A stretch of 64,000 nucleotides of DNA from a virus. Lineage: Duplodnaviria; Heunggongvirae; Uroviricota; Caudoviricetes. The DNA is taken from IMG/VR virus record IMGVR_UViG_3300021426_000065, positions 103,173 through 167,172 of that record; one strand, written 5' to 3'. Both the position numbers and the translations under genes were made by a program. This document shows, piece after piece, positions 12,531 to 61,921 of the stretch (position 1 is its first letter; each line of letters opens with the position of its first letter). The notes under the pieces were generated by a model. It did no database searches. It saw only the letters and a program-made list of their open reading frames with translations, and was not told the DNA's origin.

Positions 12531-12638
12531 AGCAAATTACTTCTTTTTTTGACTGTTAATCAAAAGGTTATTGGTTCGAGTCCAATCGTATTCTACGGAA
12601 TATGTAGCTCAATTGGCAGAGCATTATAAGCGGGTCTA
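12531..12638 (+). ncRNA. Candidate Y-RNA-like (YrlA-like) RNA with a permuted tRNA-like module. The order is terminal stem, anticodon-like hairpin, T arm, loop-closed acceptor-like stem, D arm, terminal stem.
   Basis: The 9-bp terminal helix pairs tagacccgt (12531-12539) with gcgggtcta (12630-12638). Hairpin tttga-ctgttaa-tcaaa. T arm attgg-ttcgagt-ccaat. A 7-bp stem cgtattc/gaatatg is closed by tacg. D arm gctc-aattggca-gagc carries the GG needed for a T-loop contact. Confidence 0.4.
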
Positions 12639-12646
12639 GTTTTTAT

Positions 12647-12721
12647 CGCAACGTGACGCAGTTGGTTTAGCGTACCATTCTGATAAAATGGAAGTCCCTG
12701 GTCCGAGTCCAGGCGTTGCGA
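12647..12721 (+). tRNA. tRNA-Ile, anticodon GAU.
   Basis: Acceptor cgcaacg/cgttgcg. Anticodon stem ccatt/aatgg, loop ctGATaa. T arm cctgg-tccgagt-ccagg. Confidence 0.65.
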
Positions 12722-12900: not shown

Positions 12901-13105
12901 ACAGATGAGAATTGTGTTTAATGAGCACGATTCGTTGGATATTATTATATCCACCGACCAGTATGTCGAAATAACTACCATGGGCTGGCTGAGAGGCCCT
13001 GGTCCATCTTGGCATGTGGAAGATATCTACACTCATGAGGCCATCGCTTATCCAGCGATACATAAAAGGGAGATCGTCTGGCCACTCGACCGGTAGTGGC
13101 AATTC

Positions 13106-13176
13106 GCACCATTGGTGTAGCGGTAACATCTTTGCCTTCCAAGCAAATGTGGCCAGTTCAAATCTGGTATGGTGCT
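13106..13176 (+). tRNA. tRNA-Gly, anticodon UCC.
   Basis: Perfect acceptor gcaccat/atggtgc. Anticodon stem tttgc/gcaaa, loop ctTCCaa. T loop ttcaaat. Confidence 0.75.
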
Positions 13177-13180
13177 TTAA

Positions 13181-13296
13181 AGACGCATCAGCAATTATTC
13201 TTTTGCAAAGGGAGCCCGTCAAGTGTTGGTGCAACTCCAACCCACCGCAACATGCGGTGGTCGCTCAATAGTAGAAGCGCGGTTATAAGTGCGTCT
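13181..13296 (+). ncRNA. Second candidate Y-RNA-like element. Terminal pairing gacgca/tgcgtc encloses a T-arm-like hairpin (gttgg-tgcaact-ccaac) and a loop-closed 7-bp stem (ccaccgc-aacat-gcggtgg).
   Basis: Same module order as 12531-12638. No ORF. Sits between tRNA-Gly and tRNA-Leu. Confidence 0.3.
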
Positions 13297-13304
13297 TGTT
13301 TTAT

Positions 13305-14116
13305 GCCGCTGTGGTGGAATGGCAGACACAGCAGACTTATATAATTTGAGCACTTGGATACGAAAGTTCCAATGTGAATGTTCCCTAATTCGGCGAAAGT
13401 CCAAATTGGATTACGCCGAGCTAAATGGGATTACGCTAAAAAAATTTTTTCCAGAGAGTAAATTAAAATGGTTTCCTTGTAATGTAGTCACTCTTATAAT
13501 GAGGTGATGAATATGCGAAATGATATTATTGAACGCAAAGAAGAAATTCTCCAATGGATTAATGAAGGACAATCAAAAGCGAATATGGCGCGCGAACTTA
13601 GGTGTAAGCCTGAAACTTTAAATCGTTATCTTAATCTTTGGAATATAACTTACGATGGAAATCAAAGTGGTAAAGGTACTACAAAAATCAGTAATCGTGG
13701 TATGAATTTAATGGAATATCTTGCTGAAAGTAAAGATATTCAAACTAATAAAATTCGCCGCAAATTACTTGAAGAAGGATATAAAGAATATAAATGTGAA
13801 TGTTGCGGGAATACCGAATGGATGGGTAAGCCCATTCCGCTTGAAGTTCATCATAAAGATGGAAACCGCAATAACAATACATTAGAAAATTTTGAACTTC
13901 TTTGTCCTAATTGCCATGCTTTTACTGATAGTTATCGTGGAAAAAATAGCGCAATCTCTAAATGTGTAGAGACTATATAGGAACCACCTAAGTCATAAGA
14001 TATGGTGAAAACATAGTCCAGACTACAACGCAGTAATGCGGCCATAGTAATATGGAGTAGTAAGAAAATCTGCTGCTCTTATGAGCGTGCCGGTTCAAGT
14101 CCGGCCAGCGGCACCA
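13305..14116 (+). tRNA. tRNA-Leu, anticodon UAA, class II. The gene is interrupted between U34 and A35 by a 726-nt group I intron (13339-14064) that carries an HNH homing endonuclease ORF. Exon 1 is 13305-13338 and exon 2 is 14065-14116, ending in CCA.
   Basis: Exon 1 has acceptor gccgctg, a 3-bp D stem and gcaga-ctt. Exon 2 is aaaa-tctgc, then a variable-arm hairpin gctc-ttat-gagc, T arm gccgg-ttcaagt-ccggc, cagcggc, A73, CCA. Acceptor and anticodon stems pair perfectly across the intron. The intron starts atataatttgagc and ends gtagtaaG. It has P/Q/R/S-like elements (aattcggcg, cgccgagc, ccagagagtaaat, catagtccagac). The 5' end resembles the cyanobacterial tRNA-Leu intron (AAAUAAUUGAGCC, recalled from memory). 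Confidence 0.6.
13504..13998 (+). CDS. HNH homing endonuclease encoded inside the tRNA-Leu intron. The frame reads through TAG at 13978 to TAA 13996-13998.
   Basis: Motif CECCGN...EVHHKDGNRNNNTLENFELLCPNCH. Promoter-like TATAAT and Shine-Dalgarno GAGGTGA upstream. Confidence 0.75.
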
Positions 14117-14119
14117 AAT

Positions 14120-14193
14120 GTCCTCGTAACAGAATTGGCATATGTACCGCGCTCAAAACGCGGGTTCTGTGGGTCCGACTCCCACCGAGGATA
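14120..14193 (+). tRNA. tRNA with anticodon CAA (nominally Leu) but a class I short variable arm.
   Basis: Acceptor gtcctcg/cgaggat. Perfect anticodon stem ccgcg/cgcgg, loop ctCAAaa. T arm gtggg-tccgact-cccac. A73. Confidence 0.55.
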
Positions 14194-14194
14194 C

Positions 14195-14268
14195 GTCCAG
14201 TTGGCGCAATTGGCAGACGCGCTACGTTTAGGCCGTAGTTTTTGAAGGTTCAAATCCTTTACTGGACA
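14195..14268 (+). tRNA. tRNA with anticodon UAG (nominally Leu, reading CUA) but a class I short variable arm.
   Basis: Perfect acceptor gtccagt/actggac. Anticodon stem ctacg/cgtag, loop ttTAGgc. T loop ttcaaat. A73. Confidence 0.55.
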
Positions 14269-14275
14269 TTAGTAT

Positions 14276-14304
14276 TTGACTTTTCTCCAAAATTATTATA
14301 TAAT
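14276..14304 (+). promoter_or_regulatory. Sigma-70 consensus promoter, family copy.
   Basis: TTGACT 14276-14281, TATAAT 14299-14304, 17-nt spacer. Confidence 0.55.
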
Positions 14305-14330
14305 ATATATGTAAGAAAGGGGCGAATGGA

Positions 14331-14510
14331 ATGAAATTACTTTTTCTTAATAAAGAAGAAAAGAAAGCATTGATTAAATTATTAGTTCCTTTGGCTACTT
14401 CTTCAAAAGGTAATTATGAATTAACAACTATTTTAGAAAAATTGGATTGGAAAGCATATGAATATGCTTTTAACCATCCTAAAGAAGATAAGTATTTGAC
14501 TTTTCCTTAA
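14331..14510 (+). CDS. Small hypothetical protein of 59 aa. The next promoter copy is embedded in its 3' end.
   Basis: Shine-Dalgarno AAAGGGG then ATG. The ORF ends ...KYLTFP, overlapping TTGACTTTTCC. Confidence 0.35.
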   Translation: MKLLFLNKEEKKALIKLLVPLATSSKGNYELTTILEKLDWKAYEYAFNHPKEDKYLTFP

Positions 14511-14537
14511 AATTATGTTATAATAAATATATAATGA

Positions 14538-14806
14538 AGCCCGCTAGCATAATGGTTAATGCACCGGTCTCTAGTCTAAATTGGAGCCTTATATAGTAAT
14601 ATATAAGTGAAAACGCCGCTAATTCGGTGAAGGCTTAACTGCTAATACCGAGCAAGGATTTTTAATCTATGTGTAGAGACTTTATACGGCGCATCCTTAT
14701 AGGATGAAGATAAAGTCCGGACCACGATGCGAAAGCAACGCGTGTGAAGAAAACCGTAACACCTCTGAAGTGGGTTATCTCCGTTCGATCCGGAGGCGGG
14801 CCGCCA
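14538..14806 (+). tRNA. Candidate amber-suppressor tRNA, anticodon CUA, class II, G73, CCA encoded. The gene is split in the anticodon loop after U35 by a 177-nt group I-like intron (14573-14749). Exon 1 is 14538-14572 and exon 2 is 14750-14806.
   Basis: Exon 1 is agcccgc-ta-gcat-aatggtta-atgc-a-ccggt-ctCT. Exon 2 is Aaa-accgt, a 21-nt variable arm (acct/gggt stem), T arm ctccg-ttcgatc-cggag, gcgggcc, G, CCA. Six of seven acceptor pairs form. The spliced loop ctCTAaa matches the A37-A38 pattern of most tRNAs in the island. The intron starts agtctaaattggagcc with a GGAG internal guide for the ..CUCU exon end. It ends gtgtgaaG, the same ..aaG/aaaa junction as the tRNA-Leu intron, and carries P/Q/R/S-like segments (aattcgg, ccgagcaagg, gtagagact, aagataaagtccggacc). 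Confidence 0.5.
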
Positions 14807-14874
14807 TCTTTAAGCGACCATTACAGCAATATTTTATTTATAACTGAAAATTATAAAATATGGTCGCGTTTTTT

Positions 14875-14947
14875 CGGGGTATAGCGCAGTTGGTAGCGCG
14901 CCAGTTTTGGGAACTGGATGCCGCAAGTTCGAGCCTTGCTACTCCGA
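14875..14947 (+). tRNA. tRNA-Pro, anticodon UGG.
   Basis: Acceptor cggggta/tactccg with one G-U pair. Anticodon stem ccagt/actgg, loop ttTGGga. T loop ttcgagc. Confidence 0.65.
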
Positions 14948-14970
14948 CTTATAAAAAGAAAGGAATCAAT

Positions 14971-27791: not shown

Positions 27792-29021
27792 ATGTTGAAT
27801 GCGAATCAAGAACGCGAGTTGGCCTATGTAGTAATTGTTGATGGTATTGAACCTATTCCAGGCTACGACCGCGTAGAACATGCCATTATTGGTGGATGGC
27901 GAGTTATTGTACAGAAAGGCCAATTTAAGGTTGGCGACCCCGCGATTTATTTTGAAATTGACTCTCGCGTACCCTCTGATAAGGAGTGCTTCGCATTTCT
28001 TGAAAAGCGCAATTATAAGGTTAAGACCTTAAAAATGTGTAAAACCATTTCTCAGGGTTTGCTTATGCACGCAACTGATTTTGGCTGGAATTGGTATATA
28101 GATGAAGGAAAAAATATTCCATATATTTATAATAATCAAACAGAAGAGCGTTATTATCCTGATAATGAATCTCGTTTCCTAACCAAGCAACTTGGCGTAA
28201 CCTATGCGGATGAAGAAGATAATCAGCGTAAAGCCGCGTCAGTAGACAAGTATAAGAAAATGGCTTCTCGTCATCCCAATATCTTCAAGAAGCCTTTTGT
28301 TCGCTGGCTAATGAAGTATAAGTTTGGCCGCGGAATTATGTTCTTCTTCTTCGGCAAAAAGAAAGACAAGAAGGGCGGATGGCCCGCTTGGGTCCAAAAG
28401 ACAGATGAAGAACGGGTGCAGAATATGCCTTGGATTCTTACTGACGAAGGCGATTGGGTAGCAACTGAAAAGATTGATGGCACTTCAACCACTTTTACTA
28501 TGAAGCGTGGTAAGTTTGGTAAAAAGTCTTTCTATGTTTGTTCTCGCAATGTATGTTTTGATAGCGTAGATAAACCTTGTTATTATGATAGTAATGTTTA
28601 TTGGGAGATGGCTAAAAAGTATAATATTTTTGATGTGCTTTCTAAAATGCTAGACAGCAATCCCTCAGAAGAATGGATTACTATTCAGGGAGAAACCTAT
28701 GGTGAAGGCGTGCAGCGCCGTGAATATTCTATGAGCGGTCATGATTTCGCAGCTTTCAACCTTGTATTCTCTACCAAAGGACGCGTAGGCACTATTGAAA
28801 TGATTGGTATTCTTTCTCAATACAATGTTCCTTGTGTACCTGTTGTTGAAGAAAAGATGAAAATTAATCAATTTGAAAATGTAGATGCTATCCTAAATTA
28901 CGCAGAAGGCAATTCCAAGGTAGATGGCCAGCCCCGTGAAGGCATCGTCTTCCGCACTCTTGATGGCACCAAGTCTTTTAAAGCAGTAAGTAATAGTTTT
29001 CTACTAAAATATCATGGATAA
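27792..29021 (+). CDS. ATP-dependent polynucleotide ligase, probably an RNA ligase (Rnl-like).
   Basis: Nucleotidyltransferase motif I EKIDGTS, motif IV EGIVFR, motif V lysines. 409 aa with an extra N-terminal domain. A separate DNA ligase exists at 36742. Confidence 0.5.
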   Translation: MLNANQERELAYVVIVDGIEPIPGYDRVEHAIIGGWRVIVQKGQFKVGDPAIYFEIDSRVPSDKECFAFLEKRNYKVKTLKMCKTISQGLLMHATDFGWNWYIDEGKNIPYIYNNQTEERYYPDNESRFLTKQLGVTYADEEDNQRKAASVDKYKKMASRHPNIFKKPFVRWLMKYKFGRGIMFFFFGKKKDKKGGWPAWVQKTDEERVQNMPWILTDEGDWVATEKIDGTSTTFTMKRGKFGKKSFYVCSRNVCFDSVDKPCYYDSNVYWEMAKKYNIFDVLSKMLDSNPSEEWITIQGETYGEGVQRREYSMSGHDFAAFNLVFSTKGRVGTIEMIGILSQYNVPCVPVVEEKMKINQFENVDAILNYAEGNSKVDGQPREGIVFRTLDGTKSFKAVSNSFLLKYHG

Positions 29022-39730: not shown

Positions 39731-42124
39731 ATGGCTAAATCTAAAAAAAAATCAATATCAAATACTTGGGCCCCTACTTTTCCTAGTAGATATATATTTT
39801 TTCAATCTCTTAAAAATGCAAAAGGTTCACTCGGGGGATTAAGTATTCATATGTCAAATGTATTTGGCTCTTTATCAATTAAACAAGAAGAAGAACAAAA
39901 ACGACAATAGTCCTTACAATATATTTCTAATTATATTACAATGCTGACTAAATTAGCAGAAAAGGAACAAAGTCAAGAAAAAAAATATTTACAATCAATT
40001 GCTAGAAATGGATTTGATGAAAATAAATTTAAAAATACTGATGGTAGTTTTAACTATTTAGCTTTTATTAAAGAATTAAATTTGGCTAATAGTAATATTG
40101 AATTTTTACGTAAAACAATTAAAACAAATATTAATAATATACAACAAATTGAATAGGAAATGAAAAAATTTAGTCAACAAGAAGAACGGACATATAAACG
40201 ACTGAAGGTTAATGCTAAAAATAAAGATGATACTATTGATATTGTCACTAATGAAGATGAATATATAAAACATGGCTATGTAGTAGCATATCAAAAATAT
40301 ATTGAAGAAATGTAGAAAAGAGTTAATAGCAGTTATGCAAAAACATTAAATGAATAGTTTACTGCACTAGTAAATAAAGTTATATCTAATATAGCATATA
40401 ATAAAAAAATTTTAACATAGATTACTAATGCCTGCACTAATTTAGGTATTCCTGAATCAGCCTTATTAACTACTATTCAGAACCTATGTGTAGAAGCAGT
40501 AAGATAGGAAGCTTAGAATGTCAAATGGAATTTAAAACAAATTAATGTTAAACAATTAATAAATAATCTTAATGGTACTGCGCAATTAGATTAGTTAATA
40601 GAACGCGCAGCGAATAGTATGGCCAATAAAGTTATGGATTCATAGAATAGTGTAATTCAGCAAATTTTAGATAATAGCTTAAAAGACGGTCGAGGCATTG
40701 CTAAACGTTTAGAAGAGACTCCAGAATCCTTAGATGAGTTACTCAATACAATCGGAGCGAATCAAACAGAAAAAAAATAGATTAAAAAACTTTTTTCTAA
40801 CGATCAAAAAGCCCTAAAAAATAAAAATAATAAAAAAACGAATGGCGCGATTGAACGAGCAGAATTAAAATTAACTTAGACTCGTCATCAATTGACAAAA
40901 GAGATAAATAGAATTATTAAAAAAATAGATAATAAAACATATTCTAAAAAAGAAGAGCGTGAAATAGCAGTTAATAAAATTATTTCTACATATATTTCAT
41001 CTTCAACTCCGGCTACAGTATAGCAGGCATTAATTAATTCACTTTCTTCAAGACTCAAGGTAACAAATTTATCAGATAATTCCGCGGCAGAAATACTAAG
41101 TAGCCCTGAATTTCATAATTTTCTACAAAATCATATTACAGATATATTTATTCCAGGAAAATCTATTCAATATAAACATGATTTAGCTTTTGGAGTATCT
41201 TTATAGCCACTAGAAGATACATAGTTATTAAAATATTTTACTAATATGCCATATTGGATAGAAACATACGCAGAAGAACGAGGAAGACTATTCTTAGAAG
41301 CTTATAAAGCAACTGCTGGTGGAGCAACTAGTGTATCACTCGCAGCAGAAGCCTATCGTAATGTTTTGTCAGCAAGTTTAGCGTCAAAAAAAGCTATGTT
41401 GGTCCAAGCAGATGAGAATTTACACGATAAAATTGAAGAATATTTTTCTGGACAATTAGATGGCGCAATTTCTGTTAAAGAATACAAATTCTATGATAAT
41501 AATCAAGGATTTCACGCGGGTTCATTGGGTGGAAGCGGAAAAGTAGTAGATGCTATTCCGTAGATTGCTTAGATGTTAGAATTAGGCGGAATCACATTAC
41601 CAGATACTGAATTAATAATTGATGCCTTATTAAACTGTTTTAGTGAATCTTTAATTGGCGATACTGGCCTTTTAGATGATTTAAAAAGTTTATTAATAGG
41701 TGGAGCAGCAATGATGCTTTTTGATGATGGCTTTGCCAACTGTGAAAATTTTATTAATAGATTAGTAAGTGAATTTCAACTTTCTAACGCTAAAGAACTT
41801 CCTACCGGTGGTAGTGTTCATATATTATATTTAAATAATATTTATATGCCACAATCTTATATATTATTCAACGTTATTGATCAGTTAAAAAAAATTCAGG
41901 CCGATTTAAATGGAGATGTTTTTGAGCCCTCCGAAGCCCAAAATAGTTTATACTTAAACAATCCAATGTCGGAAAGCATGTTAAAAGAAGTAGAAAATTT
42001 ACCCACTCCTGCAGAGCGATGGAATGCAATTTCTAGTTATGCACAAGAAAATGTTACAATTCATTTTCTTTTTATGGCAGGAATGCTCGATATTCTCCAA
42101 AGTTTAGAAAATTTAGGTATATAA
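39731..42124 (+). CDS. Protein of about 797 aa that is extremely TAG-rich (about 27 TAG codons), probably a virion or internal protein.
   Basis: Track ORFs 39941.., 41246.. and 41573.. share the frame of ATG 39731. Only TAG interrupts the frame. TAA stop and terminator. Confidence 0.5.
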
Positions 42125-43220: not shown

Positions 43221-44507
43221 ATGGAAAGTAATATGTTATATAATATTAATGATAAACTACCAATAAAACGCTTAATTGTGGCGGCATTACAGCAAGTTGT
43301 TGCTTGCTTTGTCGCAACAATTCTTATTCCTCAAATTTGCGGCCTACCTATCGCGCCCGCAATGCTTGGCGCCTGTATTGGCACTCTTATCTATCAGCTA
43401 TGTACACGTGGTCAAAGCCCCATGTTTATTAGTTCTTCTGGCGCATTTGTTGCCGCGGTAATTGGCGGACTTGCATTAGGCGCGACTCCAAATTATACCG
43501 CAGTAGCAATTGGCGGCGCCATTGTATGTATTGTTTATTGCGCTATTGGTGCAATTATCAATAAATGCGGCACCAATTGGATGAATAAAGTTTTGCCGCC
43601 CGTTGTTATTGGCCCAATCGTTGCAGTTATTGGTCTAAATCTTGCTACATTTATTCCAACTTACTTCCAAATTAATGGTGAATATAGTTTACTTGGCGTT
43701 GGACTTGGTATGCTAACATTAGCAATTACCGCGTTAATTTCGCACTATGGTAAGGGATTTATTAAAAATCTACCATTCCTATTTTCTATTTTAATTGTAT
43801 ATGCTTTCGCCGCGGTATTAACTGCTTGTGGCGTACCAATTATTGATTTCTCCGTATTTAATAATGTAAAGCTAATTCAAATCCCCGATTTTGCTTTTAT
43901 GCATTTTGCCGCGTTTGATTGGACACTACTACCCCAGATTCTAATGTTATTCTTACCACTATCATTAGTTACAATCGCGGAACACACCAGTGACCATAAG
44001 GCTTTAAGCGCTGTTATTGGCATAGACCTAACGCAGAATCCTGGACTTGGCAAGACTCTAATTGGCGATGGTATTGCTACCGCAGCCGGGTGTGTTATTG
44101 GCGGACTACCCAATACAAGCTATGGCGAAAGTGTTGGAACCACTGGTTTTAGCAAGATTTGCTCTCGCTATGTAATTAGTCTCGCCGCCGTTATTATGGG
44201 CGTTGCTGCATTCTTTGGACCACTTCAAGCCTTCTTAGTAAGTATTCCAAGCTCAATTTTCGGCGGCTGTGCCGCGGTTCTTTATGGATATATTACTTTG
44301 TCCGGTATTCGTACCATTAAGGATAATAATATTGACCTAAATAATAATAAGAATGTCACAATCATTGCTTCTGTTTTAACTCTTGGCGTTTCCGGTGCGG
44401 TTTGTAATTTTGGTATTGTAAGCATTGGAACCACTGCACTTGCAATGCTTGTTGGTATTATTTTAAATCTTATTTTAAAGGAGAAAAAAGATGAGAAACT
44501 TTCTTGA
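43221..44507 (+). CDS. NCS2-family nucleobase permease, copy 1.
   Basis: Twelve or more transmembrane helices, Gly-rich NCS2 motifs, EHTSDHKA. Confidence 0.6.
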   Translation: MESNMLYNINDKLPIKRLIVAALQQVVACFVATILIPQICGLPIAPAMLGACIGTLIYQLCTRGQSPMFISSSGAFVAAVIGGLALGATPNYTAVAIGGAIVCIVYCAIGAIINKCGTNWMNKVLPPVVIGPIVAVIGLNLATFIPTYFQINGEYSLLGVGLGMLTLAITALISHYGKGFIKNLPFLFSILIVYAFAAVLTACGVPIIDFSVFNNVKLIQIPDFAFMHFAAFDWTLLPQILMLFLPLSLVTIAEHTSDHKALSAVIGIDLTQNPGLGKTLIGDGIATAAGCVIGGLPNTSYGESVGTTGFSKICSRYVISLAAVIMGVAAFFGPLQAFLVSIPSSIFGGCAAVLYGYITLSGIRTIKDNNIDLNNNKNVTIIASVLTLGVSGAVCNFGIVSIGTTALAMLVGIILNLILKEKKDEKLS

Positions 44508-45798
44508 TTCACATTTCCATATTACCGAGCGCGGTTCAACTATTGGCCGCGAAGTAATTGGTGGACTCGTTACCTTCCTTACGATGGCATACATTCTAGT
44601 TGTTAATCCATCTATTCTTGGAGCAACTGGTATGGATTATACTGCACTGGTAGTTGCAACAGCACTAGCTTCTGCAATTGGCACGCTATTAACCGGCTTT
44701 ATTGCCAACGCGCCAATTGGACAAAGCACCGGATTGGGCGTTAATGCGTTTTTCGCTTATACGCTATGTTTAAAAATGGGCTATACTTGGCAGCAATGCC
44801 TTGGTATTACATTTATTAGCGGCCTTGTATTCCTTGGCATTATGCTTTCGCCACTTCGTAACAAAATCATTGATGTTATTCCAGCCGCGCTAAAACGCGC
44901 AATTAGTGTTGGTATCGGCTTATTTGTTACTTTAATTGCTTTCTTTAATGCCGGTATTATTCAGACTGCCAATGGCATCCTAGACCTTGGTCTAATTACT
45001 TCTGGTCCTGGTCTGCTAGCTATTATCGGTCTAGCAATTACAGCACTACTAATGATTTTCAAAGTAAAAGGCGCAATTCTTATCGGTATTATCGCCGCGA
45101 CACTAATTGGTATTCCAATGGGAGTAACAAATGTTAATATTACTTCTCTTGCCAGTATAAGTGTAGCGCCAGTATTCTTTAAACTATCTTTTACTGGTTT
45201 ACTATCTGCTGGTGTTGTGCCGCTACTTACTTCTATTTTTACACTTGCAATTATTGATACTTTCGATTCTGTCGGTACACTTACCGCAACACTTGCTGAA
45301 TGTGATATGATTGATGAGAACGGTGAAGTCAAAGATAAGACTATGACAAAAGCATTAATTGCTGACGCGGCGGCAACCTGCACTGGCGCACTTACGGGCG
45401 TTAGCACTATCACAAGTTTCGTAGAATCCAGCGCCGGTATAGCAGCGGGAGCACGCACAGGACTAGCCTCAATCGTAACTGGTATTTTATTCTTACTTTC
45501 TTGCGTGCTTGCTCCATTCGCTGGTGTCGTTCCATCAGCAGCAACAGCCGCGGCATTAATTATCGTTGGCATTCTAATGTTTAAGAATGTAAAATACATT
45601 GATTGGACAGATTTAGAAATTGCCATTCCAGCATTTCTAACAATTGTCGCAATGCCTTTTACATATTCAATTTCTAATGGGCTTGGATTTGGATTTATTT
45701 CTTATGTATTAATTAAAATGGTACGTGGAAAGTTTAAAGAAATCCATCCGCTTATGTATGTTCTCGCGGCATTATTCGTATTAATGTTTATTCTATAA
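44491..45798 (+). CDS. NCS2-family nucleobase permease, copy 2.
   Basis: Polytopic membrane protein, paralogue of the upstream gene. Confidence 0.6.
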   Translation: MRNFLDSHFHITERGSTIGREVIGGLVTFLTMAYILVVNPSILGATGMDYTALVVATALASAIGTLLTGFIANAPIGQSTGLGVNAFFAYTLCLKMGYTWQQCLGITFISGLVFLGIMLSPLRNKIIDVIPAALKRAISVGIGLFVTLIAFFNAGIIQTANGILDLGLITSGPGLLAIIGLAITALLMIFKVKGAILIGIIAATLIGIPMGVTNVNITSLASISVAPVFFKLSFTGLLSAGVVPLLTSIFTLAIIDTFDSVGTLTATLAECDMIDENGEVKDKTMTKALIADAAATCTGALTGVSTITSFVESSAGIAAGARTGLASIVTGILFLLSCVLAPFAGVVPSAATAAALIIVGILMFKNVKYIDWTDLEIAIPAFLTIVAMPFTYSISNGLGFGFISYVLIKMVRGKFKEIHPLMYVLAALFVLMFIL

Positions 45799-59867: not shown

Positions 59868-61921
59868 ATGGCAAATATTGATATTTTTAATTTAGAGCCA
59901 AGTAAGATTAGCCGCGACCTAAAAGGTAAATTTTTATTGATTTACGGTCAGCCTAAATAATTTGGGCCTTATATAAGCGATTATATAAGATAATTACTGG
60001 AAAAATCTGGAAGCCTGAAATGGCAATCAGAGCGGAAGTTATTCCTTAAAAAGAATAACACGCACAACGATTAGGATAATTAAACATCCAAGGAGGGTTC
60101 TATCTATGGATATTACCGTTATTAAGCAATTATATGAAAACGACAAAAAAAGTTTGGCGTAGTTAAGTAAAGACACAGGAATTAGTGCTTATAGATTAAA
60201 AAAAATTCTACTAGCAGAAGGAATTCACATTAGAAGTAAAGAAGAGCAAAACAAGTATTCTCCATAGAATCAAAGAAAATATAAAATTTATGATGAGTTT
60301 TTTGATAATTTAAATCCAACTAATGTCTATCTTATTGGATTTCTTGCCGCTGATGGTAGTATTCAAAAAGACGGCGGAATAAAAATTGGTTTATCTACTA
60401 TTGATAAATCATTTTTAGAACAAATAAAATTACTACTTAATAGTAATTATCCAATTAGAGATTATATTACTAAAGATGGATTTTCTATTTCAGAATTTAT
60501 TTTTAGAAGTGAAAAAATAAAACAAAAATTAAGTGAATTTGGTATTGTAAATAATAAGACAAAAACCTTTCAGTTTCCTTATAATTTACCAAAAGAATTT
60601 TATATTGACTTTATTCGCGGTTATTTTGATGGGGATGGAACATTTTGTACGGCTGGGCAATATTGTCGAGCTTCATTATGTGGATACAATAAACAATTTT
60701 TACAGGACGTTGTTGATATTCTTGAAAATCAATACAATATTCCAAAAGTAAAAATACAAAAAGATTCACGCGGCAATACTTATTATTTCCAATATTCTCA
60801 AACTTCTGCAAAAAAATTATATGAACTTTTTTATCAAAATCATCCAAAACTTTACTTGACTCGTAAATATGAAAAATGCTTACAACTCTTTGGTGAAATA
60901 ACATCCCACGAGCCAGTAACTTCTCAAGAAGAAGAAAAGATAATCTGACCTTATACGAATAATAAGTATAAGAATTATCGGATAAAAAGCCGATAAGATA
61001 ACATAAGTGAAGACTGGCAAGTCAACATTTGGTTCTTAGTTGCCTCGCGCATTATTCCTTAACTTTGAATAGGGTACAAATGCATTAGCCGGTATTCGCG
61101 GTGTGCCAATTCTTCGTTGGACGGACTTTAAGAAGGTATTAAGTCAGCTACGTAAACCATAGGCACGCGAAATGTATGATAGCATCGTTGTTGATACTGC
61201 TTCTATTGCTTGGCAGCTTTGTGAAGATTATATCAAGCAACGCGAATCAGTCGATTCTATTAGAGACATTCCTTGGGGCCAAGGATGGGGAATGGTTAAG
61301 AATGAGTTCTCTGAATGCTGGCGTGAGATTACCCTACTAGGATTTGGTATCCTATTTATTGCACACAGTAAAGAAAAGCCAACCGAAATGCGAGATGAAG
61401 AGGGTAATCCGATTACTGCGGTCGCGCCAGACCTACCAAATAATGCTTATACAATTATAAATAGTATTGTAGACATTATTGGTTATCTACAAGTTCAAAT
61501 GAACGCGGACGGAACAACAGAGCGTTATTTGTATACACGTTCTACTCCAACGATTTTCGCGGGTTCAAGGTATTAGTATCTAGCACCTAAAATCGCATTT
61601 GGTTATAAGGAGCTTGTAGATGCAATTGGTGAAGCAATTGACCAAGCGGTTACAAAAGACGGAGCAGAAGTAACTGACCATACTGAAATCGCTCAGGTTA
61701 AGGCGCGTCCATTCCAAGAAGTTATGGAAGAAGCTAAGCAAATCTGGATTCATTATTTGGATATGGCTACAAATGATGAAGAAAAAGACCAGCACGCAAA
61801 TATTATGCGAGATATTATTAAACGAGTATTTGGTTCAGAGGATTTCAAACTCAGCCAGGCTGTACCTTCTCAAACTGACCTCGTTGAATTGTTTATAGAT
61901 GAAATGAAAGATTTAATGTAA
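59868..61921 (+). CDS. AAA_24 (Sak4-like) recombination ATPase gene split by a group I intron. Exon 1 is 59868-59954 and exon 2 is 61010-61921. The intron (59955-61009) carries a LAGLIDADG ORF. Exon 2 contains 4 in-frame TAG codons.
   Basis: Exon 1 ends FLLIYGQP. Exon 2 begins KTGKSTFGSQLPRALFLNFEQG, rebuilding the Walker A GQPKTGKS only after splicing. The intron ends in G. A GGGC internal guide lies 9 nt inside the intron, opposite the exon end GCCU. Walker B IVVDTASI follows downstream. Confidence 0.5.
60106..60948 (+). CDS. Intron-encoded LAGLIDADG homing endonuclease with two motifs and 2 in-frame TAG codons.
   Basis: LIGFLAADGS and IRGYFDGDGT. Shine-Dalgarno AAGGAGGG then ATG 60106. 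Confidence 0.7.

What the first reader, a model, noticed from the sequence alone, without database searches (positions are those of the whole stretch)
14538..14806. Candidate amber-suppressor tRNA(CUA) interrupted by a 177-nt group I-like intron in the anticodon loop
The only canonical CUA anticodon context I found has a 5' half (acceptor, D arm, ccggt-ctCU) at 14538-14572 and a 3' half (Aaa-accgt, class II variable arm, T arm, acceptor, G73, CCA) at 14750-14806. The acceptor and anticodon stems pair across the gap. The 177-nt insert begins agtctaaattggagcc, with a GGAG guide for the CUCU exon end, and ends ..gtgaaG before the exon aaaa. That is the same junction style as the tRNA-Leu intron 1.2 kb upstream. 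P/Q/R/S-like segments are present. Decoding of every TAG in the genome would then depend on a self-splicing step, which is a possible timing switch. At 177 nt it would be shorter than the smallest group I intron I know (Azoarcus, 205 nt). The long variable arm and G73 suggest Ser or Leu-type charging rather than Gln.
Basis: partly seen in the sequence, partly recalled or inferred. Interest (0 to 1): 0.9.

Follow-up and report, generated by a model that had tools for sequence, protein, structure and literature searches.

The report
Intron-split amber suppressor tRNA in phage
A phage that reads the stop codon TAG as glutamine carries its TAG-reading tRNA gene split, in the middle of the anticodon, by a very small (177-nt) group I intron, so ordinary tRNA finders miss the gene. 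This may explain some of the "missing suppressor tRNAs" in recoded phage genomes.

Summary
Default ARAGORN and the Rfam tRNA model both miss it.

The insert is a group I intron:
- It matches Rfam Intron_gpI at 49.3 bits (cut-off 50; E 4e-11).
- It has a U·G 5' splice pair, a terminal G and helices P1-P9.
- Covariation across 16 distinct metagenomic relatives (introns 171-177 nt) supports the fold.
- A natural intron-less allele equals one relative's predicted ligated exons base for base.

The window is TAG-recoded, with at least 52 in-frame TAGs in ten genes.

- **Amino acid.** TAG sites align with CAA/CAG in relatives, and the acceptor end is tRNA-Gln-like. The tRNA therefore inserts glutamine, not Ser or Leu, despite its long variable arm.
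- **Timing switch.** Nothing supports it. Intron-less alleles are commoner, the intron has no ORF, homologous introns sit in other phage tRNA genes, and the gene has its own consensus promoter.

The best reading is a tolerated, self-splicing passenger intron in an essential suppressor tRNA. It is a new variant of a known kind. I could not confirm that it is the smallest group I intron.

The parts
14496..14524 (+). Sigma-70-type promoter TTGACT - 17 nt - (TG)TATAAT, ending 13 nt upstream of tRNA position 1
   Evidence: 11 of 12 consensus matches with an extended -10 TG. The same module recurs at 14276-14304. Consensus match only; function is inferred.
14538..14572 (+). 5' exon: acceptor 5' strand (A1 mismatched with C72), D arm, anticodon stem 5' strand, loop C32 U33 C34 U35
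   Evidence: Acceptor and D stems covary in 16 relatives.
14573..14749 (+). 177-nt ORF-less group I intron (IC3-like) inserted between anticodon positions 35 and 36
   Evidence: Rfam Intron_gpI 49.3 bits, E 4e-11. ARAGORN i(36,177). Covariation. A natural intron-less allele matches a relative's ligated exons exactly.
14569..14586 (+). P1: exon CUCU plus intron AGU (14569-14575) paired with AUUGGAG (14580-14586). U14572·G14583 is the 5' splice-site wobble pair and GGAG 14583-14586 is the internal guide.
   Evidence: alignment. The U·G pair and five neighbouring pairs are invariant in 16 of 16 sequences.
14588..14607 (+). P2 hairpin, 8 bp with a GUAA loop
   Evidence: Five of 8 pairs change on both sides; 100% of cells are paired.
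14614..14691 (+). P3 (14614-14618 with 14687-14691), enclosing P4 (14623-14628/14647-14652), P5 (14632-14634/14641-14643) and P6 (14656-14658/14666-14668)
   Evidence: P3 has C·G to U·A exchanges in 6 and 1 sequences. P6 has 2 double changes. P4 is invariant. P4, P5 and P6 are also recovered in the free-energy fold.
14678..14717 (+). P7 pseudoknot helix (14678-14683 with 14712-14717), enclosing P3' and P8 (14693-14697/14701-14705). J8/7 GAAGAUA is at 14706-14712.
   Evidence: P7 is invariant and fully paired in 16 of 16 sequences. P8 has compensatory changes. The segment matches the Rfam consensus GAAGAUAUAGUC.
14722..14749 (+). P9 hairpin (14722-14730/14735-14744, GAAA loop), then UGAAG ending in the terminal G14749
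   Evidence: Four P9 pairs change on both sides. G ends the intron in all 16 sequences.
14750..14806 (+). 3' exon: A36 A37 A38, anticodon stem 3' strand, 21-nt variable region, T arm, acceptor 3' strand, G73, encoded CCA
   Evidence: The T arm covaries.
14760..14772 (+). Variable-arm hairpin CAC-CUCUGAA-GUG. Its 7-nt loop differs from the real anticodon loop CUCUAAA only at the position equivalent to 36, and it reads like a tRNA-Gln CUG loop.
   Evidence: N-U-Y-U-G-N-N is present in 42 of 43 long-arm family members. The flanking triplets covary (UCC/GGA, UGC/GCA, CAC/GUG, CUC/GAG, CGC/GCG). Its function is unknown.
14814..14874 (+). Possible terminator: 8-bp stem GCGACCAU/AUGGUCGC with a large loop, followed by UUUUUU, just before tRNA-Pro (14875)
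   Evidence: -14.3 kcal/mol, z -2.3. Not found by the strict consensus scan. Weak evidence.
13305..14116 (+). Neighbouring tRNA-Leu(UAA) with a homologous 726-nt group I intron (13339-14064) carrying an HNH ORF
   Evidence: i(35,726). The intron is precisely absent in 97-100% identical relatives L003 and L004. Both halves are hit by the small-intron profile.

Best explanation
This is the phage's amber suppressor tRNA gene, and it is needed to read at least 52 in-frame TAG codons in this window as glutamine. The gene is interrupted between anticodon nucleotides U35 and A36 by a compact, ORF-less, IC3-like group I intron.

Proposed mechanism:
1. The gene is transcribed from its own sigma-70-type promoter (inferred).
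2. The intron folds into P1-P9. The exon end CUCU pairs with the guide GGAG, giving a U·G pair at the splice site.
3. An external guanosine attacks after U14572. The freed 3'-OH of the 5' exon then attacks after the terminal G14749. This step is inferred from group I chemistry.
4. The exons are ligated, which creates the anticodon loop CUCUAAA. The junction is shown indirectly by a natural intron-less allele.
5. The 92-nt tRNA, with its CCA encoded, is charged with Gln by host enzymes and decodes UAG. Gln is inferred from codon substitutions and acceptor-end identity.

The intron itself is most likely a tolerated selfish or mobile passenger of a family that colonises phage tRNA genes, and not a built-in regulator.
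For: - tRNA and intron calls.
- Group I covariance-model match over the full model, E 4e-11.
- Structure supported by 29 doubly changed pairs and 92.9% pairing, against 31-43% for slid controls, in 16 distinct sequences.
- P2, P4-P6, P7 and P8 recovered by free-energy folding.
- The spliced product of relative L016 is identical to the intron-less genes in L050 and L077.
- TAG is a sense codon. Long-ORF coverage rises from 0.74 to 0.88, and ORFs of 1094, 798 and 666 codons carry 14, 16 and 4 TAGs. Profile matches span the TAGs.
- TAG corresponds to CAA/CAG in relatives.
- Gln-like acceptor identity in 48 family members. The 1:72 pair is A×C 17, U·A 12, A·U 6, U×U 5 and is never G·C in the long-arm members. 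G73 is present in 42 of 48.
- The published intron-less homologue in phage phAss-1 is annotated Sup-CTA. tRNAscan-SE called a phAss-1 Sup-CTA gene Gln-type, though the paper does not say which of the three (PMC10607447).
- Intron-bearing loci are TAG-recoded and show no second CUA tRNA in the flanks held.
- Passenger status: 45 viral contigs carry the intron-less junction sequence. Homologous introns occur in other tRNA genes. The neighbouring Leu intron is present or absent among near-identical phages.
Against: - No RNA data, so splicing is not observed.
- The Rfam score is 0.7 bit under the gathering cut-off. The hit disappears under the stricter filters of the whole-window scan.
- Only 64 kb of a genome of probably 160-190 kb is visible, so a second suppressor elsewhere cannot be excluded.
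- The long variable arm with G73 is what SerRS normally reads, so Gln charging is unproven.
- The IC3 subgroup assignment rests on resemblance. No subgroup-specific model was run.
Confidence: 0.85

Rival explanations
1. The intron is a regulatory gate. All TAG decoding needs the spliced tRNA, so the rate or conditions of self-splicing (GTP, Mg2+, folding, a phage factor) would time the switch from the standard code to TAG=Gln, and with it the expression of TAG-rich genes such as tail fibres.
For: It is the only CUA tRNA seen in the window and in the held flanks of 24 intron-bearing loci. TAGs are concentrated in tail-fibre-like genes and absent from 21-39 kb. The intron sequence is strongly conserved while the exons diverge. 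The literature proposes recoding as a lysis and late-gene timer (bioRxiv 10.1101/2021.08.26.457843) and ribozyme-assisted suppressor tRNA maturation (PMC10879173).
Against: Intron-less alleles are the majority, and one has identical exons. The same intron family sits in ordinary sense tRNAs. TAGs also occur in replication genes such as the Sak4-like and DnaB genes. The tRNA has a consensus host-type promoter of its own. High intron conservation is also expected for a recently spreading mobile element.
Confidence: 0.1
2. The tRNA is charged by SerRS (or LeuRS or TyrRS) because of its class-II-size variable arm and G73, so TAG would encode Ser or Leu.
For: The variable region is 21 nt and forms a hairpin, and G73 is present. 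From general knowledge, bacterial SerRS recognises the long arm and ignores the anticodon.
Against: TAG sites correspond to CAA/CAG in relatives, with no Ser or Tyr codons and only four Leu codons overall. Conserved Q is found at all four Sak4-like sites. The 1:72 pair is mismatched or weak, unlike G1-C72 of Ser, Leu and Tyr tRNAs. The D arm is class-I-like, with a 4-bp stem. G73 excludes the A73 required by LeuRS and TyrRS (general knowledge). TAG to Gln was shown by metaproteomics in other code-15 phages (PMC9523058).
Confidence: 0.05
3. The gene is an inactivated relic: the intron no longer splices, and TAG is decoded by another suppressor encoded outside the window or by the host.
For: Only about a third of the genome is visible. 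The published relative phAss-1 has three Sup-CTA genes (PMC10607447). The covariance-model score is just under threshold.
Against: Compensatory changes in P2, P3, P6, P8 and P9, and invariant catalytic-core segments across 16 sequences, indicate purifying selection on the ribozyme fold. The exons keep a perfect cloverleaf in all of them. There is no second CUA tRNA in the tRNA clusters of 24 loci.
Confidence: 0.05

Closest known systems
[quoted passage not shown]
   Same: A small, ORF-less group I intron in a tRNA anticodon loop. It has P2 to P9 with GNRA loops on P2 and P9, a U·G pair at the 5' splice site, a terminal G, and the J8/7-P7 consensus GAAGAUA.AGUC.
   Different: It is bacterial and chromosomal, sits in a sense tRNA, and (from memory) is inserted after position 36. 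The intron here is 28 nt shorter (171-177 nt in the family), with a minimal P5, P6 and P8 and no 11-nt tetraloop receptor in P8. It lies at 35/36 and is in a phage suppressor tRNA.
[quoted passage not shown]
   Same: The same intron class and the same logic. A homologous Leu(UAA) intron at 34/35 lies 1.2 kb upstream in this very window.
   Different: It is inserted at 34/35, is typically about 250 nt or more, and its host is a sense tRNA.
Group I introns at position 35/36 of Patescibacteria tRNA-Asn, Asp and Tyr (Nakagawa et al. 2026, PMC13011429)
   Same: The same unusual insertion point inside the anticodon (35/36). They are missed or mis-assigned by standard tRNA finders and mostly lack an ORF. 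Their self-splicing was verified in vitro.
   Different: They are bacterial, mostly subgroup IA, and sit in sense tRNAs. That paper does not mention suppressor tRNAs and mentions phage only in a reference title.
'Enigmatic' tRNA introns of Lak megaphages (Devoto et al. 2019, PMC6784885)
   Same: Phage tRNA genes with conserved introns in TAG-recoded phages, including tRNA-Tyr(GTA). Intron presence or absence varies among related genomes.
   Different: In the passages I read they are not identified as group I ribozymes and not reported in the CUA suppressor. The phage lineage (540 kb, Prevotella host) is different.
tRNA-Sup-CTA of phage phAss-1 (OQ749652, 62445-62532; PMC10607447)
   Same: The same tRNA family without the intron: 91% identity over 68 nt to an intron-less family member (L050 allele), the identical anticodon arm, and the same long variable arm with a CUCUGAA loop. 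TAG is Gln in that genome.
   Different: It has no intron, lies next to a second Sup-CTA of 72 nt (the paper reports three Sup-CTA genes in the genome), and comes from the human gut.
Theta (HDV-like) ribozymes next to phage suppressor tRNAs (Kienbeck et al. 2024, PMC10879173)
   Same: Maturation of a code-15 phage suppressor tRNA depends on a self-processing ribozyme.
   Different: It is a self-cleaving ribozyme flanking the tRNA. It is not an intron, and no exon ligation is needed.
E. coli supE (tRNA-Gln CUA)
   Same: A CUA anticodon on a tRNA with a weak 1:72 pair, G2, G10 and G73, which inserts Gln at UAG (general knowledge).
   Different: supE has a 5-nt variable loop, G3-C70 and no intron. 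Here position 3:70 is C-G and the variable region is 21 nt.

Membership tests
Group I intron | Conserved core helices P3-P9, including the P3/P7 pseudoknot and the J8/7 segment | tested here: met
   The full-length alignment to RF00028 covers model positions 1-253. All helices are paired in 16 sequences, with compensatory changes in P2, P3, P6, P8 and P9, and P7 is invariant.
Group I intron | The 5' exon ends in U, which forms a U·G wobble with the internal guide sequence in P1 | tested here: met
   U14572·G14583, and a U·G pair in 16 of 16 sequences.
Group I intron | The intron ends in G (omega G) | tested here: met
   G14749. G is terminal in all 16 family members.
Group I intron | Score at or above Rfam's curated gathering cut-off (an operational criterion, not a structural one) | tested here: not met
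   49.3 bits against 50. The shortfall comes from deleted peripheral positions, since about 76 of 253 model positions are absent. The E-value is still 4e-11.
Group I intron | Guanosine-dependent self-splicing with exact exon ligation | not testable with these tools
   Indirect support only: the intron-less alleles L050 and L077 equal the predicted ligated exons of L016 exactly.
Group I intron, subgroup IC3 | Match to a subgroup-specific model or architecture | not tested
   No subgroup models were available. The architecture (P2 present, no P2.1, GNRA loops on L2 and L9, tRNA host) and homology to the tRNA-Leu(UAA) intron resemble IC3.
Amber suppressor tRNA | Canonical cloverleaf with a 7-nt anticodon loop: U33, C34 U35 A36, purine 37 | tested here: met
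   ARAGORN on the spliced sequence and with the intron option. The mature sequence is fixed by intron-less alleles.
Amber suppressor tRNA | The genome uses in-frame TAG in genes whose homology continues across the codon | tested here: met
tRNA-Gln identity (E. coli GlnRS set, from general knowledge) | Weak or broken 1:72 pair, G2-C71, G10 and G73 | tested here: met
   The window has A1×C72, G2-C71, G10 and G73.
tRNA-Gln identity (E. coli GlnRS set, from general knowledge) | G3-C70, G36 and a short (4-5 nt) variable loop | tested here: not met
   The window has C3-G70, A36 (as in supE) and a 21-nt variable region. I therefore do not file it as a canonical tRNA-Gln. I say only that it very probably inserts Gln.
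tRNA-Gln identity | Aminoacylation with Gln (by GlnRS, or by GluRS plus GatCAB) | not testable with these tools
   Inferred from CAA/CAG at the homologous positions.
   There are no Ser or Tyr codons, and Leu codons number 4 of 161 aligned positions.
   A 21-nt variable region with a covarying hairpin.

The most novel reading that the evidence does not exclude
In lineages like this one the intron-bearing gene is the only TAG decoder. Guanosine- and Mg2+-dependent self-splicing would then be the rate-limiting gate of the switch from the standard code to TAG=Gln, acting as an RNA-only timer for tail-fibre and other TAG-rich genes.

A second reading, independent of the first and also not excluded, concerns the variable arm. 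Its conserved 7-nt loop (C-U-C/U-U-G-A-A, a Gln CUG/UUG anticodon loop) might be a decoy anticodon that keeps glutamine identity while the real anticodon reads UAG. I would give that about 0.1 as well.
Probability: 0.1. Interest if true: 0.85.

Novelty: new variant of a known kind. Interest (0 to 1): 0.62.

Why it matters
1. **Annotation of recoded phages.** Surveys report that 40-65% of recoded phage genomes lack a detectable suppressor tRNA, and they suspect non-canonical genes (10.1101/2021.08.26.457843; PMC7886860; PMC13037316). Here the suppressor is invisible to default ARAGORN and to the Rfam tRNA model purely because of an intron. At least 16 distinct such genes exist in public metagenomes. 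Intron-aware tRNA searches should recover part of the "missing" suppressors.

2. **Where phage introns live.** A 2014 review stated that all phage introns known to that date were in protein-coding genes despite many phage tRNA genes (PMC3984707). This window alone has two tRNA genes with group I introns. The family also occupies Asn, Tyr, Ser, Arg and Leu tRNA genes in other contigs.

3. **Ribozyme size.** At 171-177 nt these are at or below the size of the classic minimal self-splicing introns. They offer natural, covariation-supported minimal scaffolds for ribozyme work.

4. **Dependence on an RNA reaction.** An entire genetic-code change is made dependent on an RNA-catalysed step. That makes a timing role directly testable.

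Tried and rejected
- **Near and distant DNA searches of GenBank phages** with the 2-kb region and the 269-nt gene found nothing. The lineage and the intron are not in deposited phage genomes. Only the intron-less tRNA matched, in phAss-1.
- **The Rfam whole-window E-value scan** did not list the intron, because filters are stricter on 64 kb. Only the 1.8-kb scan did.
- **Pattern GGTCTCTAGTNNNNATTGGAG:** three of the five hits were chance matches in coding DNA. **Pattern GATGAAGATAAAGTCCGG:** ten of the 15 hits were unrelated coding sequence.
- **The bacterial-genome scan** for the suppressor gave only three MAG contigs, probably mis-binned phage, so it gave no host assignment.
- **Alternative splice registers were considered.** A 5' splice site after U33 would need a non-G intron end or would give a 5- or 8-nt anticodon loop. 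It is also contradicted by the intron-less alleles. This matters because two-base boundary shifts are a known source of wrong anticodon calls (PMC13011429).
- **Alternative cloverleaf rejected.** A fold using the variable-arm hairpin as the anticodon arm leaves only a 2-nt variable loop and a bulged 3+2-bp stem.
- **The apparent Shine-Dalgarno-like AAGGAGGU** in some variable arms is not conserved. The window has GAAGUGGGU, so I dismissed it.
- **Literature searches** for an intron in a phage suppressor tRNA, or for the variable-arm feature, found no description. A search for the smallest known group I intron was uninformative.
- **Pfam scans of 20 window proteins** found no GlnRS, GatB, release factor or other code-change protein.
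Full report
**Observation**

The window is 36.6% G+C and encodes about 20 tRNAs on the + strand between 8.4 and 20.4 kb.
- 5' exon, 14538-14572: AGCCCGCUAGCAUAAUGGUUAAUGCACCGGUCUCU
- 177-nt insert, 14573-14749
- 3' exon, 14750-14806: AAAACCGUAACACCUCUGAAGUGGGUUAUCUCCGUUCGAUCCGGAGGCGGGCCGCCA

Default ARAGORN and the Rfam tRNA model do not report a gene here. ARAGORN with introns allowed returns tRNA(cta) [14538,14806] with a 177-nt intron after position 35. It also returns tRNA-Leu(taa) [13305,14116] with a 726-nt intron. The joined exons alone are accepted as a 92-nt cloverleaf with anticodon loop C-U-CUA-A-A, a 21-nt variable region, G73 and an encoded CCA. Position 1 (A) is mismatched with C72.

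**The insert is a group I intron**

In a scan of 13150-14950, Rfam Intron_gpI aligns end to end (model positions 1-253) to 14563-14742. The score is 49.3 bits with E 4.4e-11, which is 0.7 bit below the curated cut-off of 50. The alignment and inspection give these elements:
- P1: exon CUCU plus AGU, paired with AUUGGAG, with U14572·G14583 at the splice site
- P2: 8 bp with a GUAA loop
- P3, P4, a minimal P5 and P6
- P7: GACUUU paired with AAAGUC
- P8, and P9 with a GAAA loop
- a terminal G at 14749

Free-energy folding of the intron alone recovers P2, P4-P6, P7 and P8, with z = -2.2.

**Relatives and covariation**

Pattern scans of viral and metagenome contigs recovered 16 distinct intron-bearing tRNA(CUA) genes, with introns of 171-177 nt. 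One ARAGORN call of 192 nt turned out to be a mis-placed boundary on a 177-nt intron.

I counted pairs for the full structure I derived on the alignment of these 16 sequences:
- 92.9% of pair cells are standard pairs, against 31-43% when the 3' partners are slid by 1-3 columns.
- 29 pairs change on both sides, against 16.7 ± 1.9 in shuffles (0 of 500 shuffles reach the observed value).
- Compensatory changes occur in P2 (5 pairs), P3 (2), P6 (2), P8 (3) and P9 (4), and in the acceptor, D and T stems.
- P1, P4 and P7 are invariant, so they are uninformative for covariation. That is expected for the catalytic core.

The caveat is that I derived the structure from these sequences, so the slid control flatters it. 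The number of doubly changed pairs is still large.

**The splice junction**

The tRNA exons of relative L016 are 100% identical to contiguous intron-less genes in L050 and L077. The flanking DNA is unrelated. The mature sequence is therefore ...CCGGUCUCUAAAACCGU..., and the anticodon is CUA.

This excludes the two-base boundary shifts that are known to produce wrong anticodon calls for 35/36 introns (PMC13011429). At DNA level the junction can slide by one A. The group I rules (U at -1, G at the intron end) fix it at 14572|14573 and 14749|14750.

**The genome is TAG-recoded, and TAG means glutamine**

- Treating TAG as sense raises the fraction of the window covered by ORFs of at least 100 codons from 0.74 to 0.88.
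- It also joins fragments into ORFs of 1094, 798 and 666 codons carrying 14, 16 and 4 TAGs.
- PHROG profile matches run across the TAGs in a tail protein, a nucleoside 2-deoxyribosyltransferase, a LAGLIDADG endonuclease, a Sak4-like ATPase and DnaB.
- I count at least 52 in-frame TAGs in ten such genes. Genes at 21-39 kb and 43-58 kb are almost free of TAG.

I aligned window proteins to six-frame translations of related contigs and read the codon opposite each TAG. Overall the counts were TAG 43, CAA 28, CAG 27, AAA 16 and GAA 10, among others. By identity band:

| Identity band | Codons opposite the window's TAGs |
|---|---|
| 70-90% | CAA 14, CAG 14, ATG 2, TAG 2 |
| 50-70% | CAA 9, CAG 7, remainder scattered |

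No Ser or Tyr codon was seen.

The four TAG sites of the Sak4-like protein are Q in 116-120 of 120 homologues at 82-99% identity. Some of those Q may come from code-15 gene calling, which is why I made the DNA-level comparison.

CAA is as frequent as CAG at these sites. They are therefore conserved glutamine positions, and not merely CAG codons that mutated to TAG.

**tRNA identity**

I parsed 48 distinct family members: 16 spliced sequences plus intron-less alleles from 45 viral contigs sharing the 17-nt anticodon arm.
- The 1:72 pair is A×C 17, U·A 12, A·U 6, U×U 5 and G·U 3. It is never G·C among the 43 members with the long variable arm.
- Position 2 is G in 42 of 48.
- Position 73 is G in 42 of 48.

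From general knowledge, these are the acceptor-end hallmarks that GlnRS uses. The weak 1:72 pair is also used by GatCAB.

A published intron-less member lies in phage phAss-1 (OQ749652, 62445-62532) and is annotated tRNA-TERM/Sup-CTA. That paper reports a tRNAscan-SE Gln isotype for a phAss-1 Sup-CTA gene and a predicted Clostridia host (PMC10607447).

Two features keep it from being a canonical tRNA-Gln: the long variable arm and C3-G70. How it is charged is unresolved.

**What the intron is doing**

The evidence favours a tolerated mobile passenger:
- The intron has no ORF.
- Intron-less alleles are commoner: 45 viral contigs carry the intron-less junction sequence, against 9 of 18 viral contigs matching the intron-core pattern that carry an intron-bearing CUA tRNA.
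- Homologous small introns occur in tRNA-Asn(GUU) and tRNA-Tyr(GUA), also at 35/36, in tRNA-Ser(UGA) at 34/35, and in tRNA-Arg(UCU) and several tRNA-Leu genes of other contigs.
- A sequence profile of the family hits both halves of the neighbouring Leu(UAA) intron (13339-13424, E 3e-6; 13962-14042, E 4e-8). That intron is the same core with an HNH gene inserted near P6.
- The Leu intron is precisely absent from contigs that are 97-100% identical on both sides.

The suppressor gene has its own TTGACT-17-TGnTATAAT promoter, ending 13 nt upstream of position 1. A hairpin followed by a U-run lies before tRNA-Pro (weak evidence). The gene therefore looks constitutively transcribed by a host-type polymerase.

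Some facts keep a gating role possible, though there is no positive evidence for it. The intron-bearing copy is the only CUA tRNA in the window and in the flanks of 24 related loci. Those loci are themselves TAG-recoded.

**Context**

- The nearest deposited phages by Sak4-like protein are Enterococcus and Bacillus phages, at 30-37% identity.
- The 2-kb region around the gene and the 269-nt intron-bearing gene itself have no DNA match in GenBank phages.
- Relatives are abundant in metagenomes, with 1730 Sak4-like homologues on contigs up to 189 kb.
- A sub-threshold hit to the "cow-rumen-3" RNA family hints at a cow-rumen origin.
- The promoter type and these homologies suggest a Bacillota host.
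- The bacterial-genome scan found the tRNA only on three MAG contigs, which are probably mis-binned phage.

**Comparison with what is known**

- Group I introns in tRNA anticodon loops are classic in bacteria and plastids.
- Insertion at 35/36 was described in 2026 for Patescibacteria Asn, Asp and Tyr tRNAs (PMC13011429).
- "Enigmatic" introns in Lak-phage tRNAs were noted in 2019 without classification (PMC6784885).
- A 2014 review stated that all phage introns known then lay in protein genes (PMC3984707).
- HDV-like theta ribozymes flank some phage suppressor tRNAs (PMC10879173).

I found no report of a self-splicing intron inside a phage suppressor tRNA. The searchable library lacks most subscription-journal papers.

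The size of 171-177 nt is below the 205 nt that I recall for Azoarcus. I could not check this against a catalogue. A 2025 preprint gives an average of about 206 nt for gut-phage group I introns (PMC12363816), so I treat "smallest" as unverified.

**Verdict**

- It is a new variant of a known kind.
- It has practical value for annotating recoded phages.
- The glutamine-anticodon-like loop in the variable arm is an unexplained side observation that deserves an experiment.

Noticed in passing
window 14760-14772; family in L038-L082, L154: The suppressor's long variable arm is a covarying hairpin. Its 7-nt loop is C-U-(C/U)-U-G-A-A in 42 of 43 members, which reads as a tRNA-Gln anticodon loop (CUG or UUG). 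It differs from the real anticodon loop CUCUAAA at one base. It might be an identity element or decoy, and I found no literature on it.
   Followed up: partly
window 13305-14116: tRNA-Leu(UAA) is split at 34/35 by a 726-nt group I intron (13339-14064) with an HNH endonuclease ORF (13507-13980). The intron is precisely absent from 97-100% identical contigs L003 and L004. Its core is homologous to the suppressor's intron.
   Followed up: yes
window 59868-61921: The Sak4-like ATPase gene is split. Exon 1 (MANIDIF...LLIYGQPK) ends near 59954, a LAGLIDADG ORF lies at 60106-60948, and exon 2 starts near 61010. The intervening sequence begins with a P1/P2 like the tRNA intron's (AATTTGGGCC TTATATAAGCGATTATATAAG) and ends GTGAAG. 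Uninterrupted homologues of 332 aa exist.
   Followed up: partly
window 14120-14194 and 14195-14268: Two tRNAs with Leu anticodons (CAA and UAG) are only 74-75 nt long and have no long variable arm. That is unusual for bacterial-type tRNA-Leu.
   Followed up: no
L115, L141, L091, L138 (coordinates): The same small intron family (172-186 nt) interrupts tRNA-Asn(GUU) and tRNA-Tyr(GUA) at 35/36, tRNA-Ser(UGA) at 34/35, and tRNA-Arg(UCU) in other phage-like contigs, one of which is 345 kb.
   Followed up: partly
window 21208-29021; 12546-12655; 12909-13008: An RNA-repair-like gene cluster is present: an AAA_33 kinase, a metallophosphatase, a DUF2828/DUF7788 protein, RlaP and an RNA ligase. There are also sub-threshold Rfam hits to the YrlA (Y RNA-like) family at 32.9 bits and to cow-rumen-3 RNA at 60.2 bits (cut-off 86.7) inside the tRNA cluster.
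   Followed up: no
window 39731-42124: A 797-codon ORF carries 16 in-frame TAGs, the densest in the window, and has no PHROG match. The HNH ORF of the Leu intron also has a TAG (13978), six codons before its TAA.
   Followed up: no
window 43221-45798: Two adjacent xanthine/uracil-family permease genes (Pfam Xan_ur_permease, E 4e-62 and 1e-38) lie in a phage genome.
   Followed up: no
window 14276-14304 and 14496-14524: A repeated near-consensus promoter module (TATTTGACTTTTC...TATAAT) precedes a small ORF and the suppressor tRNA.
   Followed up: partly
L154 1410-1575 (OQ749652 62445-62610): Phage phAss-1 carries two adjacent Sup-CTA genes. One is a 72-nt class-I form and the other is the 88-nt long-variable-arm form. 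Both architectures therefore coexist in one genome.
   Followed up: partly
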